Below are positions 11,145 to 14,114 of a stretch of DNA of 24,000 bases, piece by piece (within the stretch, counting starts at the first letter, position 1; every line of letters begins with the position of its first letter). Below the pieces are notes generated by a model that was not told the origin of the DNA, made no database searches, and saw only the letters and a program-made list of their open reading frames with translations. Position numbers and translations under genes: made by a program. Location: contig CAVYNY010000010.1 of assembly GCA_963769935.1 (NCBI GenBank), forward strand, positions 567,890-591,889, in the 5' to 3' direction. The DNA is from an uncultured delta proteobacterium. Its GTDB lineage: Bacteria; Desulfobacterota; Desulfobacteria; Desulfobacterales; JAFDCJ01.

Positions 11145-14114
11145 TTATCTTCTCAATTCATCCGCCAATTCCAGGATACCACTCAGGTCAAAATCCTCAG
11201 ACAGTTGAATTATTTTGTCACAAAAAGGTGTGAGACCATTATTTTCAGACTTCAACGTTTTGGCAATCGATGCTATTTGCACCACATCTCCCATTTCAGC
11301 CGCCGCTTTGATGCGATCGGCCAGGTCTCGAGCTATTTCGGGGGCTATACAGGCCATTTCGGATTCGGTGCACGCGACGGTTTTCTTTTCAGACATGGGA
11401 ACCAGGGTTTGAACCGCGTCCAGCGCCTGCCCGAGAGCTTCTTGCAGGTCTGTTAATTTCCGGTTCAATTCTGTATCGGAGGCCGCCTCCCCTGCCCACC
11501 CTTTAACGAGTTTTTCCATTGCCACCGCTGCTGCCTGGAGGTCGACGGCGGCCAGATTTCCGGCCAGCCCCTTCAAGTTGTGAACCAGGCCGTGGGCACG
11601 ATTAAAATCTTTGGCCGCCAATGCCTCACGGATGTCAGCGGCGGCGCCGCAGCAGCTGGCGCCGAAATCAAGCAACAGCTTGCGGTAAAGGCGCTTGTTG
11701 TCCATCAGACGCGCCAGACCCGCCGCCAGATCAAAGCCCGGCAAAGATTCAGGCAGTTCATCTTCATCCGTCTTCGCCTGAACAGCCTGCGCTGGTGCAT
11801 CAGGTACCGGTGACCCTCCTGAGGCGGGCAAACTTTTTGGGTCGACGATCCGCTCTGCAGCCGGTTTGATCCACTTCTGCAGGGCGGCAAACAGCTGGTC
11901 CGGATCAATGGGTTTGGTCACATGATCGTTCATCCCGGCCGCCAAACTCCTCTCCCGATCGCCGGCCATGGCATGGGCCGTCATCGCGATGATAGGAATG
12001 GGATGCTGGATGCTGGATACTGGATACTGGATACTGGTTGGCGGCAGTTCAGAGGACTGAGGACCCGTCTTCGTCGGGGTAAGTGAGGGAATACGCCGCG
12101 GCGAGCTGAGGACCGAGGGTTGGCCCTCGATTTCGGATTTTAAATCAGAATCCTCTCCGACAGTCTTCCTTGTTTTCAATACATCAGTATCCGCGTTAGC
12201 GGAGACTGATTCCCACTTCCGGATCTCCCGTGTGGCTTCAAAACCGTTCATCTCAGGCATCTGTATATCCATGAGCACCACATCGTAGATCCGCTCCTTG
12301 ACCATCGCCGCTGCTTCTTTGCCGTTGTTGGCAATGCTCACCACCAATCCTGCGTTCTCCAGAATCTCCTGCGCCACCTGCTGATTGATCGCATTGTCCT
12401 CCGCCAGCAGCACTTTTGCCCCGCGAATCTTATCAAGCTCCTGCGCCGCATCGGTCCCCGCCCGGGCTTCGCGCTCAAGCTCAGGAACTTCCTTGCCGAA
12501 AGCGGCCATGATCGCGTCAAAAAGCATGGACTGGCTCACGGGTTTGAGGAGAAAACCATCCAAGCCTATTTTCTCGGATATCCGCATGAGCTCTTCACGG
12601 CCATAGGCCGTCACGATGATAATCTTGGGCTTGCGGGGGATGTCGGAATGCCTGTTGATAATTTCGGAAGCCTCAATGCCATCCATCCCCGGCATTTTCC
12701 AGTCCATCACCACCAGCTGATACGGCCGGAGCTTCGCTTCCCTCGCCAGTTCTGCGATGCCCTCCTCCGCCGAGGCTGCCACTGAAACCTCAAAACTCAT
12801 GCTCGCAAGCAGCGTCTGTAGAATCTCACGGGAGGATGCATTGTCGTCCACGACTAAAACCCGCATCCCCTTCAGATCCAGCGACGGCTCCAGGTATCTC
12901 TCCGTCACTCTCCCCGTTAAACCGAATTTTGCGGTGAATATGAAATTGCTGCTCTTGCCGGGTTCGCTCTCAACCCAGATTTCCCCTTTCATCATGTTCA
13001 CCAGGTGCTTGGAGATGGTCAGCCCGAGCCCCGTTCCCCCGAACTTGCGCGTCGTGGACGAATCCGCCTGGGTAAAGGCCTCAAACAGCTTCTGCCTCTG
13101 CTCGGGGGTCACTCCGATCCCCGTGTCGCGAACGGAAAATCGAAGCATCACCCATTGTTCCTCTTTTTCCACCATTTCGGTGGCAAGCACGATCTCTCCG
13201 GCCTCTGTAAACTTCACCGCATTGTTGCACAGGTTGGTCAGCACCTGGCCCAGCCGCAATGGATCCCCCACCAGCGCCATGGGCACCTCCGGCGCCGTAT
13301 CCATCAGGAACTCCAGCTTTTTGTCCTGAGCCTTCACACCGGCAATCGTCGCTACGTTATCCAGGACTTCATCCAAGCCGAAATCCACAGACTCCATGTG
13401 CAGCTTCCCCGCTTCAATCTTGGAAAAATCCAAAATGTCGTTGATGATTCCCAGCAGGGAATTGGCGGAACGCTGGATCTTGTTCAAATAATCCTCTTGC
13501 TTGGGGGTCAAGGCCGTCCGAAGCGCCAAATGAGCCATTCCGATCACGGCATTCATGGGGGTCCGGATCTCATGACTCATGTTGGCCAGAAAATCGCTCT
13601 TGGCTTTTGTGGCGGCCTCGGCCGCCTGCTTGGCGAGGTGCAGTTCCTCAGCTCTGGTTTTTAATTCTTCGTTTTTGGCCTTCAGGTCGTTCAAAAGTTC
13701 CAGCCTGGAGGGACGTGCCAGACTTTGTCTTTGCATTTCGACAAACTCATCCGACAGGTGACCGGCGCTATCCGGCAGATAGCTGAATGTCCTGATTCTG
13801 ACCGTCTTCTGCTCAGTGCGGTCGATTTCAAATGTGTCAAAAAAAAATTTTAAATTCGGCATTGAGATCAATTGCTCAGGGCACTGAAAGGTCATCCATA
13901 GTCCGCTCCGGCCCTCACGCCGGTCAATGCCGACAGAAATTTTTGTGCCCTTGCCGCCCTTTCTTCCCAAGCCGGTGATTTCAGAAACAATCGTTTCCAG
14001 CCGGGTGGCATGAATCGGTTCGCAGCCTAAATCTTCGGCCAGCAAGCGAATCTTTTTCCGCGCCGCAACTCTGGTATTTTCGTTCTTTACCGATAAATTA
14101 CCGAGTTTGATCAT
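11145..14114 (-). CDS. Cytoplasmic hybrid histidine kinase, 989 aa: novel N-terminal domain, coiled coil, HisKA, HATPase, REC, REC, HPt, C-terminal extension. Paralogue of the 1770-aa kinase.
   Basis: Intact ORF with RBS GGAGG and a start that overlaps the rsbX-like stop by 17 nt. No TM segment. H-box [42 protein letters not shown]1: [27 protein letters not shown]2: [35 protein letters not shown]. HPt: [14 protein letters not shown]. From the H-box to the C-terminus it aligns by eye at roughly 70-75% identity with the 1770-aa protein. Confidence 0.92.
12000..12209 (-). repeat. In-frame segment of about 70 codons in the alpha3-beta4 loop of REC2 of the 989-aa kinase, containing a 7-nt tandem array
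   Basis: It lies between IRKWE and (I)[10 protein letters not shown]. Plus strand 12001-12035 reads ggatgct ggatgct ggatact ggatact ggatact, which encodes [13 protein letters not shown]; the repeat is therefore at DNA level, not protein level. The distal end has cagtatcc (12186-12193), complementary to ggatactg. There is an internal hairpin GAGGGttggCCCTC. Confidence 0.6.

What the first reader, a model, noticed from the sequence alone, without database searches (positions are those of the whole stretch)
13695..14114. N-terminal ~140 aa of the 989-aa kinase looks like a degenerate RsbT/SpoIIAB-type GHKL domain (possible pseudo-RsbT docking module)
The kinase begins [77 protein letters not shown]. 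The adjacent RsbT-like protein begins LLSDQNDKEQVITAARHLAAAAGFDEVNQFLIATAASELATNIVNYAQKGELTLRIVQRNNRLGIEIIARDDGPGI.

The two align by eye through the (A)AR...LA..(L/A)G(C/F)(E/D)......(L/I).T..SE(I/L) helix-loop-helix and the following beta strands. In the kinase the N-box Asn is lost (ELATN becomes EITGL) and so is the DxGxG nucleotide box (DDGPGI becomes QCPEQLI).

A catalytically dead RsbT-like fold fused to the transmitter could dock on RsbS/RsbR in place of RsbT, or in competition with it. That would make the kinase itself the partner-switching client. This is inference from a by-eye alignment.
Basis: inference. Interest (0 to 1): 0.62.

Follow-up and report, generated by a model that had tools for sequence, protein, structure and literature searches.

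The report
Dead RsbT copy heading stressosome-linked kinase
The first 137 residues of this sensor kinase are a catalytically dead copy of the stressosome switch kinase RsbT, and the same undescribed module heads the output proteins encoded right after stressosome genes in many phyla, so it is probably the missing link between stressosomes and their non-Bacillus outputs.

Summary
Residues 1-137 of the 989-aa hybrid histidine kinase (window 13704-14114, minus strand) match no Pfam or NCBIfam model. An AlphaFold2 model (pLDDT 85) has the RsbW/SpoIIAB anti-sigma-kinase fold. Profile comparison shows specific homology to RsbT (hhalign 98.7 %, E 1.8e-16).

The N-box Asn, the G1 box, the ATP lid and the G2 box are lost. 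The alpha1/alpha2 face is conserved: R19, K21, R23, R38, S44, E45 and R48.

The domain defines a single-origin family with at least 362 clusters at 50 % identity. It almost always sits at residue 1 and is followed by a conserved helical linker. Outputs are HisKA kinases (about 82 %), PP2C phosphatases, nucleotide cyclases and GGDEF/EAL/HD-GYP proteins.

In 18 of 19 loci with readable upstream DNA, across many phyla, its gene directly follows rsbR-rsbS-rsbT(-rsbX). Two of these have globin-coupled, 'Vibrio-type' RsbR. Kinases whose N-terminal RsbT-like domain is still intact occur in related operons.

I read it as the stressosome-output receiver that replaces RsbU_N. The favoured mechanism (about 45 %) is that it docks on unphosphorylated RsbS/RsbR STAS domains and is released when RsbT phosphorylates them. 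The main rival (about 30 %) is that it binds free RsbT. The partner has not been tested.

The parts
13704..14114 (-). Pseudo-RsbT domain (kinase residues 1-137). Topology is b1-a1-a2-b2-b3-a3-b4-b5-a4. The N-box Asn, G1 box, ATP lid and G2 box are lost.
   Evidence: AF2 model, pLDDT 85. Foldseek top hits are RsbW, SpoIIAB and UsfX. hhalign to RsbT gives 98.7 %, E 1.8e-16.
13605..13703 (-). Helical linker (residues 138-170). It begins with the conserved S136-R137-x-E N-cap box and runs into the DHp helix.
   Evidence: S136 occurs in 127/165 and R137 in 118/165 family members. The 'SRxELLxxLxxKNxEL' consensus holds across outputs. A long helix follows the domain in the P0035 model.
13407..13604 (-). 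HisKA (DHp) domain, residues 171-236.
   Evidence: Pfam PF00512, E 7e-24.
12927..13268 (-). Catalytic HATPase_c domain of the histidine kinase, residues 283-396.
   Evidence: Pfam PF02518, E 2.5e-29.
12510..12860 (-). First receiver domain, residues 419-535. A second REC domain follows.
   Evidence: Pfam PF00072, E 3.5e-51, 3 stretches.
11421..11675 (-). Hpt domain, residues 814-898.
   Evidence: Pfam PF01627, E 5.6e-8.
11145..14114 (-). The whole 989-aa hybrid histidine kinase, the output protein of the module.
14098..14709 (-). rsbX-like single-domain PP2C phosphatase. It overlaps the kinase start by 17 nt.
   Evidence: Pfam SpoIIE, E 7e-12.
14654..15157 (-). rsbT, an intact HATPase_c_2 serine kinase and the only RsbT in the genome.
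   Evidence: Pfam PF13581, E 9e-13. The RsbT profile gives E 5.8e-55 with no second strong hit.
15129..15584 (-). rsbS, a single STAS domain with an acidic C-terminal tail (residues 111-151).
   Evidence: Pfam STAS.
15587..16411 (-). rsbR, a PAS sensor domain plus a STAS domain.
   Evidence: Pfam PAS_4 and STAS.

Best explanation
Shown by tool results:
- Residues 1-137 are a paralogue of the stressosome switch kinase RsbT that keeps the GHKL fold.
- It has lost everything needed to bind ATP: the N-box Asn, the G1 DxGxG box, about 19 residues of ATP lid, and the G2 box.
- It belongs to a single-origin family that is always N-terminal and is joined by a conserved helix to a signalling output. 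Here the output is a HisKA-HATPase-REC-REC-Hpt phosphorelay kinase.
- Its gene lies directly after rsbR-rsbS-rsbT-rsbX.

Inferred:
- It is the receiver of stressosome output and takes the place of the RsbU N-terminal domain, which this genome lacks.
- Most likely mechanism: the two pseudo-RsbT domains of the kinase dimer dock on unphosphorylated STAS domains of the RsbR/RsbS stressosome, using the retained RsbT alpha1/alpha2 face (R19, K21, R23, R38, S44-E45, R48).
- On a signal sensed by the RsbR PAS domain, the stand-alone RsbT phosphorylates RsbS/RsbR. The kinase is then released.
- The change passes down the coiled-coil linker to switch autokinase versus phosphatase activity. RsbX resets the system.

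My confidence in the identity of the domain is about 0.95. My confidence that it is the stressosome-output receiver is about 0.8. My confidence in the STAS-docking mechanism is about 0.45, and that is the figure given in the confidence field.
For: Fold: AF2 model at pLDDT 85. Foldseek top hits are RsbW 6m36/6m37, SpoIIAB 1tid/1th8, UsfX 8ih8 and SiaB 6kko, all at probability 1.0.

Homology specific to RsbT:
- hhalign gives E 1.8e-16, and 1.4e-11 with close relatives only.
- The family profile hits only RsbT among 8 or more small HATPase_c_2 proteins of the genome.
- The profile hits stand-alone RsbTs elsewhere at 1e-8 to 1e-15.
- In the tree the family is one clade (100/100) inside the RsbT-like radiation, set against RsbW-like outgroups.

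Loss of catalysis: Asn at the N-box position in 4/165 members and Asp at the G1 position in 12/165. The lid and G2 are deleted.

Retained face: R19 in 137, K21 in 156, R23 in 106, R38 in 154, S44 in 157, E45 in 146 and R48 in 128 of 165. RsbT R19, R23 and N24 are RsbT's partner-binding residues (PMC12143880). Glu45 is the base that faces the STAS Ser in RsbT-RsbS docking (PMC9237128).

Linkage:
- 18 of 19 informative loci have rsbS-rsbT(-rsbX) immediately upstream.
- In 401 sampled genomes of the phylum, all 6 genomes with the full domain are among the 27 with RsbT.

Modular outputs: 94 of 114 proteins carry HisKA, 7 SpoIIE, 6 a cyclase domain, and a few GGDEF/EAL/HD.

No RsbU_N domain is found in the genome.

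Intermediates:
- Related operons carry kinases and PP2C phosphatases with an intact N-terminal HATPase_c_2 domain. The kinase domains score above the Pfam cut-off; of the two PP2C fusions scanned, one does.
- One (L028) is partly decayed. This suggests that binding, not catalysis, is the selected function of the fused domain.
- A PP2C fused to an RsbT-like domain makes sense as targeting the phosphatase to phospho-STAS.
Against: No binding partner was tested, and no multimer prediction tool was available.

The architecture (N-domain, coiled-coil linker, output) is exactly that of RsbU_N proteins, which bind free RsbT rather than the stressosome. That favours the rival.

PSI-PP2C-HATPase_c_2 proteins (L047, P0080) look like RsbU with RsbU_N swapped out, which again suggests an RsbT-binding role.

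Retention of S44-E45 could be structural.

The acidic RsbS tail that accompanies most family members is missing in the globin-type loci, so it cannot be a general docking site.

Docking a dimeric 989-aa kinase on the stressosome surface may be sterically demanding.
Confidence: 0.45

Rival explanations
1. RsbU_N analogue. The pseudo-RsbT domain forms the N-terminal dimerisation platform of the kinase. Free RsbT, once released from the stressosome, binds to it, possibly as a GHKL heterodimer that mimics the homodimers of SpoIIAB and RsbW. Binding rigidifies the coiled-coil linker and activates the output, as RsbT does with RsbU.
For: The domain grammar is the same as in RsbU_N proteins: an N-domain, a helical linker, then a PP2C, HK or GGDEF output (PMC12143880). 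PSI-PP2C(-HATPase_c_2) proteins resemble RsbU. RsbU_N is absent from the genome, so RsbT needs another target. A tandem duplication of the domain in P0035 hints that it can pair with itself.
Against: What the pseudo-domain retains is RsbT's own partner-binding face and its catalytic-base motif, not a surface known to receive RsbT. No RsbT-RsbT-type contact has been documented for stressosome RsbT. For the Vibrio-type module, whose relatives carry the domain, no VvRsbT-VvD1 interaction was detected (PMC9237108). That assay also missed RsbT-RsbS, so this is weak evidence.
Confidence: 0.3
2. Phosphorylation target. RsbT transiently phosphorylates the downstream protein within or next to this domain, for example at the conserved S/T136 at the start of the linker helix. 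This is the suggestion made for the Vibrio downstream kinases.
For: [quoted passage not shown] Position 136 is Ser or Thr in 144 of 165 members, and S44 is conserved in 157 of 165.
Against: S136-R-x-E is a standard helix N-cap box, which explains its conservation without phosphorylation. S44 is equally conserved in RsbT itself. Known RsbT substrates are STAS domains, not GHKL folds.
Confidence: 0.1
3. Autonomous sensor or dimerisation cap. The remodelled nucleotide pocket binds some other small ligand, or the domain merely dimerises the kinase. In this reading it has no physical contact with stressosome proteins.
For: The pocket-lining S44, E45 and R48 and the invariant F92-D93 could form a new ligand site. 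One orphan copy lies next to mutS, away from any rsb genes.
Against: Near-obligate adjacency to rsbRST(X) in 18 of 19 loci across many phyla. The orphan's genome still encodes RsbT. A stressosome module with no output connection would be left unexplained.
Confidence: 0.1

Closest known systems
RsbT, the stressosome switch serine kinase (HATPase_c_2, PF13581)
   Same: Same fold and demonstrable homology (hhalign E 1.8e-16). The alpha1 Arg positions 19 and 23, the G30-F31 turn and the S44-E45-x-x-R48 motif are in register. It is encoded in the same operon.
   Different: It has no N-box Asn, no DxGxG box, no ATP lid and no G2 box, and is about 19 residues shorter in the core. It adds a C-terminal helix and is fused to an output protein rather than free-standing. 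It scores below the Pfam threshold.
RsbU N-terminal domain (RsbU_N, PF08673), as found in RsbU, Moorella MtG and some proteobacterial histidine kinases
   Same: It occupies the same architectural slot: an N-terminal module, then a coiled-coil linker, then a PP2C, HK or GGDEF output, encoded downstream of rsbRST. It presumably plays the same role as receiver of stressosome output.
   Different: The fold is unrelated: RsbU_N is a four-helix bundle, while this is an alpha/beta GHKL sandwich. RsbU_N is absent from this genome. The binding partner may be the STAS core rather than RsbT.
SpoIIAB, RsbW, UsfX and SiaB, anti-sigma or partner-switching kinases with solved structures
   Same: They are the best structural matches, with TM-scores up to 0.8 normalised on the target. 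The conserved alpha1 Arg corresponds to SpoIIAB R20, which contacts the STAS partner. That correspondence rests on my own knowledge and was not tested here.
   Different: Those are active ATP-binding dimers that phosphorylate a STAS protein or sequester a sigma factor. The family profile does not hit the genome's own RsbW-like proteins.
HATPase_c_2::HisKA-HATPase_c kinases and HATPase_c_2::PP2C phosphatases of related rsbRST operons (loci L027-L034)
   Same: An RsbT-like domain is fused N-terminally, through a helical linker, to the output protein encoded after rsbRST. The family profile hits them at 1e-12 to 1e-15.
   Different: Their RsbT-like domain still has N, G1 and G2 boxes. In the kinases it scores above the Pfam cut-off; of the two PP2C fusions scanned, one does. 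They look like the ancestral state or a parallel state, and L028 is partly decayed.
VvD1, the sensor kinase downstream of the Vibrio vulnificus rsbRSTX module (Heinz et al. 2022)
   Same: Two globin-RsbR 'Vibrio-type' modules from the order of Psychromonas, as grouped by the genome tool (my expectation that this order also holds the vibrios was not checked), are followed by a PSI-PAS-HK-REC-REC-Hpt kinase (1033 aa) or a PSI-PP2C protein. This matches the published description of D1-type outputs that lack RsbU_N.
   Different: The VvD1 sequence itself could not be retrieved here, so its membership in the family is untested.

Membership tests
GHKL / HATPase_c_2 serine kinases (RsbT, RsbW, SpoIIAB) | Bergerat-type alpha/beta fold with b-a-a-b-b-(lid)-b-b topology | tested here: met
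   AF2 model at pLDDT 85. Foldseek probability 1.0 to RsbW, SpoIIAB, UsfX and SiaB.
GHKL / HATPase_c_2 serine kinases (RsbT, RsbW, SpoIIAB) | Detectable sequence homology to family members | tested here: met
   hhalign to the RsbT alignment gives 98.7 %, E 1.8e-16. The profile hits the genome's own RsbT at E 1.4e-5. The Pfam PF13581 model itself does not reach the domain.
GHKL / HATPase_c_2 serine kinases (RsbT, RsbW, SpoIIAB) | N-box Asn that coordinates Mg-ATP | tested here: not met
   Leu in the window protein. Asn in only 4 of 165 family members.
GHKL / HATPase_c_2 serine kinases (RsbT, RsbW, SpoIIAB) | G1 box (DxGxG), ATP lid and G2 box | tested here: not met
   CPEQL replaces DDGPG. Asp at the G1 position in 12 of 165 members. 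About 19 residues spanning the lid and G2 are deleted in the profile alignment.
GHKL / HATPase_c_2 serine kinases (RsbT, RsbW, SpoIIAB) | ATP binding and Ser/Thr kinase activity | not testable with these tools
   Predicted to be absent from the motif loss. This needs a nucleotide-binding or kinase assay.
RsbU_N (PF08673) RsbT-receiver domain | Four-helix-bundle dimerisation domain matching PF08673 | tested here: not met
   No Pfam hit. The model is alpha/beta, not a helical bundle. No PF08673 match anywhere in the genome, while the B. subtilis control is positive.
Stressosome (RsbRST) output module | Encoded immediately downstream of rsbR-rsbS-rsbT(-rsbX) | tested here: met
   True in the window. 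Also true in 18 of 19 informative loci from many phyla.
Stressosome (RsbRST) output module | Physical interaction with RsbT or with the RsbR/RsbS core | not testable with these tools
   No multimer prediction or experiment was available.

The most novel reading that the evidence does not exclude
The stressosome directly sequesters a two-component histidine kinase, and in other lineages PP2C phosphatases, cyclases and c-di-GMP enzymes. It does so through a fused, catalytically dead RsbT copy that competes with RsbT for STAS sites. The output enzyme itself would then be the partner-switching client. RsbT would act only as the releasing kinase. This pseudo-RsbT module would be the general, so far unrecognised coupling device of non-Bacillus stressosomes, including the O2-sensing Vibrio type.
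Probability: 0.4. Interest if true: 0.8.

Novelty: new variant of a known kind. Interest (0 to 1): 0.7.

Why it matters
Stressosome rsbRSTX modules are widespread outside Bacillus. For most of them nobody knows how the signal reaches the two-component, PP2C or cyclic-nucleotide proteins encoded next door, because those proteins lack the RsbU_N domain that receives RsbT. Heinz et al. 2022 (PMC9237108) state this explicitly and report that no RsbT-D1 interaction could be detected.

A conserved domain derived from RsbT but catalytically dead, sitting at the N-terminus of exactly these proteins, turns that open question into concrete experiments. The candidate partners are few (the RsbR:RsbS core or RsbT). 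The residues to mutate are defined (R19, K21, R23, R38, E45, F92-D93). The domain is transferable across outputs.

It also adds a bacterial example of a pseudokinase recruited as a signalling input domain. Finally, it supplies a profile that can annotate several hundred protein clusters whose N-termini currently carry no domain call.

Tried and rejected
- Pairwise BLASTP of the domain against the window's RsbT was not significant (E 2.3).
- Pfam, NCBIfam and PDB sequence searches of the domain found nothing meaningful.
- PF24820 (Diguanyl_cycl_sensor) appeared in the family tallies, but it maps to a PAS region, not to this domain.
- The search for related loci with the broad alignment A4 failed for lack of a conserved stretch. 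A tighter sub-alignment (A5) worked.
- A single-sequence AF2 model of the tandem-domain protein P0035 had pTM 0.28. It shows both copies folding alike but says nothing about an interface.
- The reverse search, RsbT profile against the kinase N-terminus, does not reach E 1e-3. This is expected, because that profile is dominated by the catalytic boxes.
- Charge complementarity between the acidic RsbS tail and the domain is not supported at whole-domain level, where the median net charge is +1. The tail is also absent from the globin-type loci.
- I tried to find VvD1 itself through homologue and cluster look-ups, but no Vibrio entry was returned.
- Pane-Farre 2005 is not held in the library, so I could not check whether that paper noted the domain.
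Full report
**Anatomy of the locus.** Five tightly packed genes lie on the minus strand:
- rsbR (15587-16411), PAS plus STAS.
- rsbS (15129-15584), STAS.
- rsbT (14654-15157), HATPase_c_2.
- An rsbX-like single-domain PP2C (14098-14709).
- A 989-aa hybrid histidine kinase (11145-14114). 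It has HisKA at residues 171-236, HATPase_c at 283-396, two REC domains and an Hpt domain at 814-898.

The kinase ATG lies 17 nt inside the end of rsbX and follows a GGGAGG/GGAAG ribosome-binding site. All homologues begin with the same MI(K/E)LG motif, so the start codon is secure.

**Is the N-terminal region a real domain?** Residues 1-162 match no Pfam model at E <= 10 apart from a weak chance-level match (IKBKB_SDD, E 0.057, residues 103-153). They match no NCBIfam model and no PDB sequence. Pairwise BLASTP against the window's RsbT is insignificant (E 2.3).

The region is nevertheless strongly conserved. A word-indexed search found 33 homologues, mostly Desulfobacterales-type hybrid kinases. 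A profile of 16 N-terminal domains (A1) was then run against 1.84 billion representative proteins. It found 362 proteins at E <= 1e-3 and 181 at E <= 1e-10. In 144 of 164 full-length matches the domain starts at residue 1.

**Fold.** AlphaFold2 on A1 gave a confident model with pLDDT 85 and pTM 0.79. Its topology is b1-a1-a2-b2-b3-a3-b4-b5-a4. Foldseek against the PDB ranks these first, all at probability 1.0 and with TM-scores up to 0.8 on the target:
- B. subtilis RsbW (6m36, 6m37).
- SpoIIAB (1tid, 1th8, 1til).
- Mycobacterial UsfX (8ih8, 8jzt).
- SiaB (6kko).

Histidine-kinase CA domains come far behind, with E above 0.1.

**Homology specifically to RsbT.**
- A broader family profile (A4, 76 sequences) was searched against the window's own 8-Mb genome. 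It hits the kinase N-terminus (E 7e-50) and one other place, window 14888-15046, which lies inside rsbT (E 1.4e-5).
- The genome encodes at least eight other small HATPase_c_2 proteins that match Pfam better than RsbT does. None is hit by the family profile.
- hhalign of A4 against an alignment of 19 RsbT proteins (A6) gives 98.7 % probability and E 1.8e-16 over 114 columns.
- Using only the 16 close, fully degenerate relatives it still gives 97.4 % and E 1.4e-11.
- The alignment is gapless through a1, a2, b2 and b3. It then shows a deletion of about 19 residues that removes the end of G1, the ATP lid and G2.
The 'AAR' match is four residues out of register; kinase R23 aligns with RsbT R23.
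- A maximum-likelihood tree puts all 30 sampled pseudo-domains in one clade (100/100) on a long stem. That clade groups with RsbT-type domains rather than with the genome's RsbW-like proteins. The exact sister group is unresolved, and long-branch effects are possible.

**Catalytically dead, but with one face conserved.** Counts are from 165 family members.
- The N-box position holds Asn in 4 members.
- The G1 Asp position holds Asp in 12 members.
- Conserved instead are R19 (137), K21 (156), R23 (106), G30 followed by F/Y31, T37-R38 (R38 in 154), S44 (157), E45 (146), R48 (128), F92 (162), D93 (152), L113-P114, and S136-R137.
- S44-E45-x-x-R48 is the remnant of RsbT's SELARN N-box.
- R19 and R23 are in register with R19 and R23 of B. 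subtilis-type RsbT. This is visible in the class-2 RsbTs.
- RsbT R19, R23 and N24 are the residues implicated in partner binding (PMC12143880).
- Glu45 is the base that faces the STAS serine in RsbT-RsbS docking (PMC9237128).
- S136-R-x-E is a helix N-cap box that starts the linker helix.

**Architecture of the family.** Among 114 members of at least 300 aa, the domain is followed by these outputs:
- HisKA in 94, often with REC and Hpt.
- SpoIIE PP2C in 7, two of them with a C-terminal HATPase_c_2, which makes an RsbU/RsbW-like fusion.
- An adenylate/guanylate cyclase domain in 6.
- GGDEF, EAL or HD-GYP in a few.
- HWE or HisKA_2 kinases in single cases.

PAS or GAF domains may be inserted between the domain and the output. 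The SRxELLxxLxxKNxEL linker is shared across outputs. One protein carries two tandem copies of the domain. This is the behaviour of a portable input module.

**Genomic linkage.**
- In a sample of 401 genomes of the window's phylum, 15 had a profile hit at E <= 1e-8. I fetched 14 of these loci, and every one contains rsbR-rsbS-rsbT.
- Five loci (L021-L025) repeat the window's order rsbR-S-T-X-[domain protein].
- A scan of species-representative genomes gave 14 more loci. They come from Nitrospira, Desulfobacterales, Atribacteria, Dehalococcoidia, Ignavibacteriales, Marinifilum, Gemmatimonadota, Psychromonas and archaeal MAGs.
- All 10 of these with at least 1.2 kb of upstream sequence have rsbS-rsbT(-rsbX) immediately upstream.
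- One locus, L042, lies next to mutS. Its genome has RsbT at the end of another contig.
- Two further loci from the order that contains Psychromonas have RsbR with a Protoglobin sensor, the O2-sensing 'Vibrio-type' stressosome. They are followed by RsbS-T-X and then by a domain-PAS-HK-REC-REC-Hpt kinase of 1033 aa or a domain-PP2C protein.
- Counting L021-L026, the ten loci, L042, L059 and L060, 18 of 19 informative contexts show direct adjacency. The window itself makes one more.
- In the phylum sample, 27 of 401 genomes have RsbT. All six genomes with a full-length domain are among those 27.
- The window's genome has one RsbT, one pseudo-RsbT kinase and no RsbU_N (the B. subtilis control is positive).

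**Intermediates.** Nine loci (L026-L034) show a second operon type. Its order is rsbR-S-T, then a HATPase_c_2::PP2C fusion of about 340 aa, then a histidine kinase.
- The N-terminal 130 residues of that kinase are hit both by the window's RsbT (phmmer 1e-11 to 1e-20) and by the family profile (1e-12 to 1e-15). The exceptions are L030, L031 and L034, whose kinases show no such N-terminal hit, and L026, described below.
- In the three kinases scanned (L027, L029, L033) the domain scores above the Pfam HATPase_c_2 cut-off.
- Most keep ARN, DxGPG and GxG boxes.
- L028 has lost the Asn and part of G1.
- The L026 kinase is fully degenerate and belongs to the family.

A series from intact fused RsbT-like domain to dead domain therefore exists. 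This argues that binding, not catalysis, is what the fused domain is kept for.

**Mechanism.** The shown facts are identity, loss of catalysis, position before a coiled-coil linker, modular outputs and near-obligate linkage to rsbRST(X). The inference is that the domain receives the stressosome's output, a job done by RsbU_N in Bacillus, Moorella and some proteobacteria (PMC12143880, PMC9237108).

Two mechanisms fit. I favour STAS docking, at about 45 %, for these reasons:
- STAS domains are the only universal partner of RsbT-type domains.
- The part of RsbT that is retained is its partner-binding a1 face and the Ser-Glu motif that meets the phospho-acceptor.
- The sister architecture, an RsbT-like domain fused to PP2C, is easily read as targeting a phosphatase to phospho-STAS.
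- A kinase dimer with two such domains could sit on an RsbS dimer and be released when the stand-alone RsbT phosphorylates the core. The linker would carry the change to the DHp.

The main rival, at about 30 %, is that the domain replaces RsbU_N literally and binds free RsbT. The identical domain grammar and the RsbU-like PSI-PP2C-HATPase_c_2 proteins speak for it.

Minor rivals, at about 10 % each, are phosphorylation of the domain by RsbT, and an autonomous ligand-binding or dimerisation role. None of these could be tested with the tools available.

**Prior knowledge.** Full-text searches for RsbT-like or pseudokinase domains in stressosome outputs returned nothing relevant. Pfam (2025) and NCBIfam (2026) have no model. 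Heinz et al. 2022 state that most proteins downstream of RSTX, including V. vulnificus D1, have no recognisable RsbU_N, and that a VvRsbT-VvD1 interaction could not be shown. Pane-Farre 2005 could not be read, so an earlier mention cannot be fully excluded.

**Verdict.** The domain is a new, widespread pseudo-RsbT input domain, a new variant of a known kind, and it makes an acknowledged open question directly testable.

Noticed in passing
window 15132-15254 (-), RsbS residues 111-151; also the RsbS genes of L021-L025, L035-L048: RsbS proteins of operons that carry the degenerate domain mostly have a 25-55-residue strongly acidic C-terminal tail (13 of 14 loci). RsbS of the operons with intact RsbT-like fusions do not (0 of 9). 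The two globin-type loci L059 and L060 also lack it, so it is not universal. Its function is unknown.
   Followed up: partly
L027:6070-9767, L028, L029, L032, L033 (L030, L031, L034: PP2C fusion only): A second operon type runs rsbR-S-T, then a HATPase_c_2::PP2C fusion, then a HATPase_c_2::HisKA-HATPase_c kinase. That gives up to three RsbT-like domains per operon (two where the kinase lacks the N-terminal domain), most with intact ATP boxes. L028's kinase copy has lost the N-box Asn.
   Followed up: partly
L059:2925-8318 and L060:6646-10259: These are globin-coupled (Protoglobin-STAS) RsbR modules of the O2-sensing 'Vibrio type'. They are followed by a divergent copy of the domain fused to a PAS-HK-REC-REC-Hpt kinase or to a PP2C phosphatase.
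   Followed up: yes
L047:3-1682 and protein P0080: Here the pseudo-RsbT domain is fused to PP2C and then to an intact HATPase_c_2. This looks like an RsbU-RsbW-like fusion in which RsbU_N has been replaced by this domain.
   Followed up: partly
protein P0035 (552 aa): This histidine kinase has two tandem copies of the domain, at residues 1-135 and 128-259, ahead of the kinase core.
   Followed up: partly
L039 versus L043: A contig assigned to a Woesearchaeota MAG has the same gene order and a nearly identical RsbT to an Atribacteria contig. It is probably mis-binned, so the archaeal occurrence should be treated with caution. Methanomicrobia L041 is a 127-kb contig and is more credible.
   Followed up: no
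L043:2024-3404: The domain-kinase gene is split into two overlapping ORFs inside the domain. This is either a frameshift or a sequencing error.
   Followed up: no
window 5284-10596 (-): The next gene downstream is a 1770-aa hybrid kinase with periplasmic-binding and PAS inputs. Its transmitter half is a close paralogue of the 989-aa kinase, but it lacks the pseudo-RsbT domain: the family profile hits only one kinase in the genome.
   Followed up: partly
G000:C10:272973-273308: The RsbT profile has a second, weaker hit (E 2e-9, positions 7-114) in a 434-aa ORF elsewhere on the same contig. This may be another HATPase_c_2 fusion protein.
   Followed up: no
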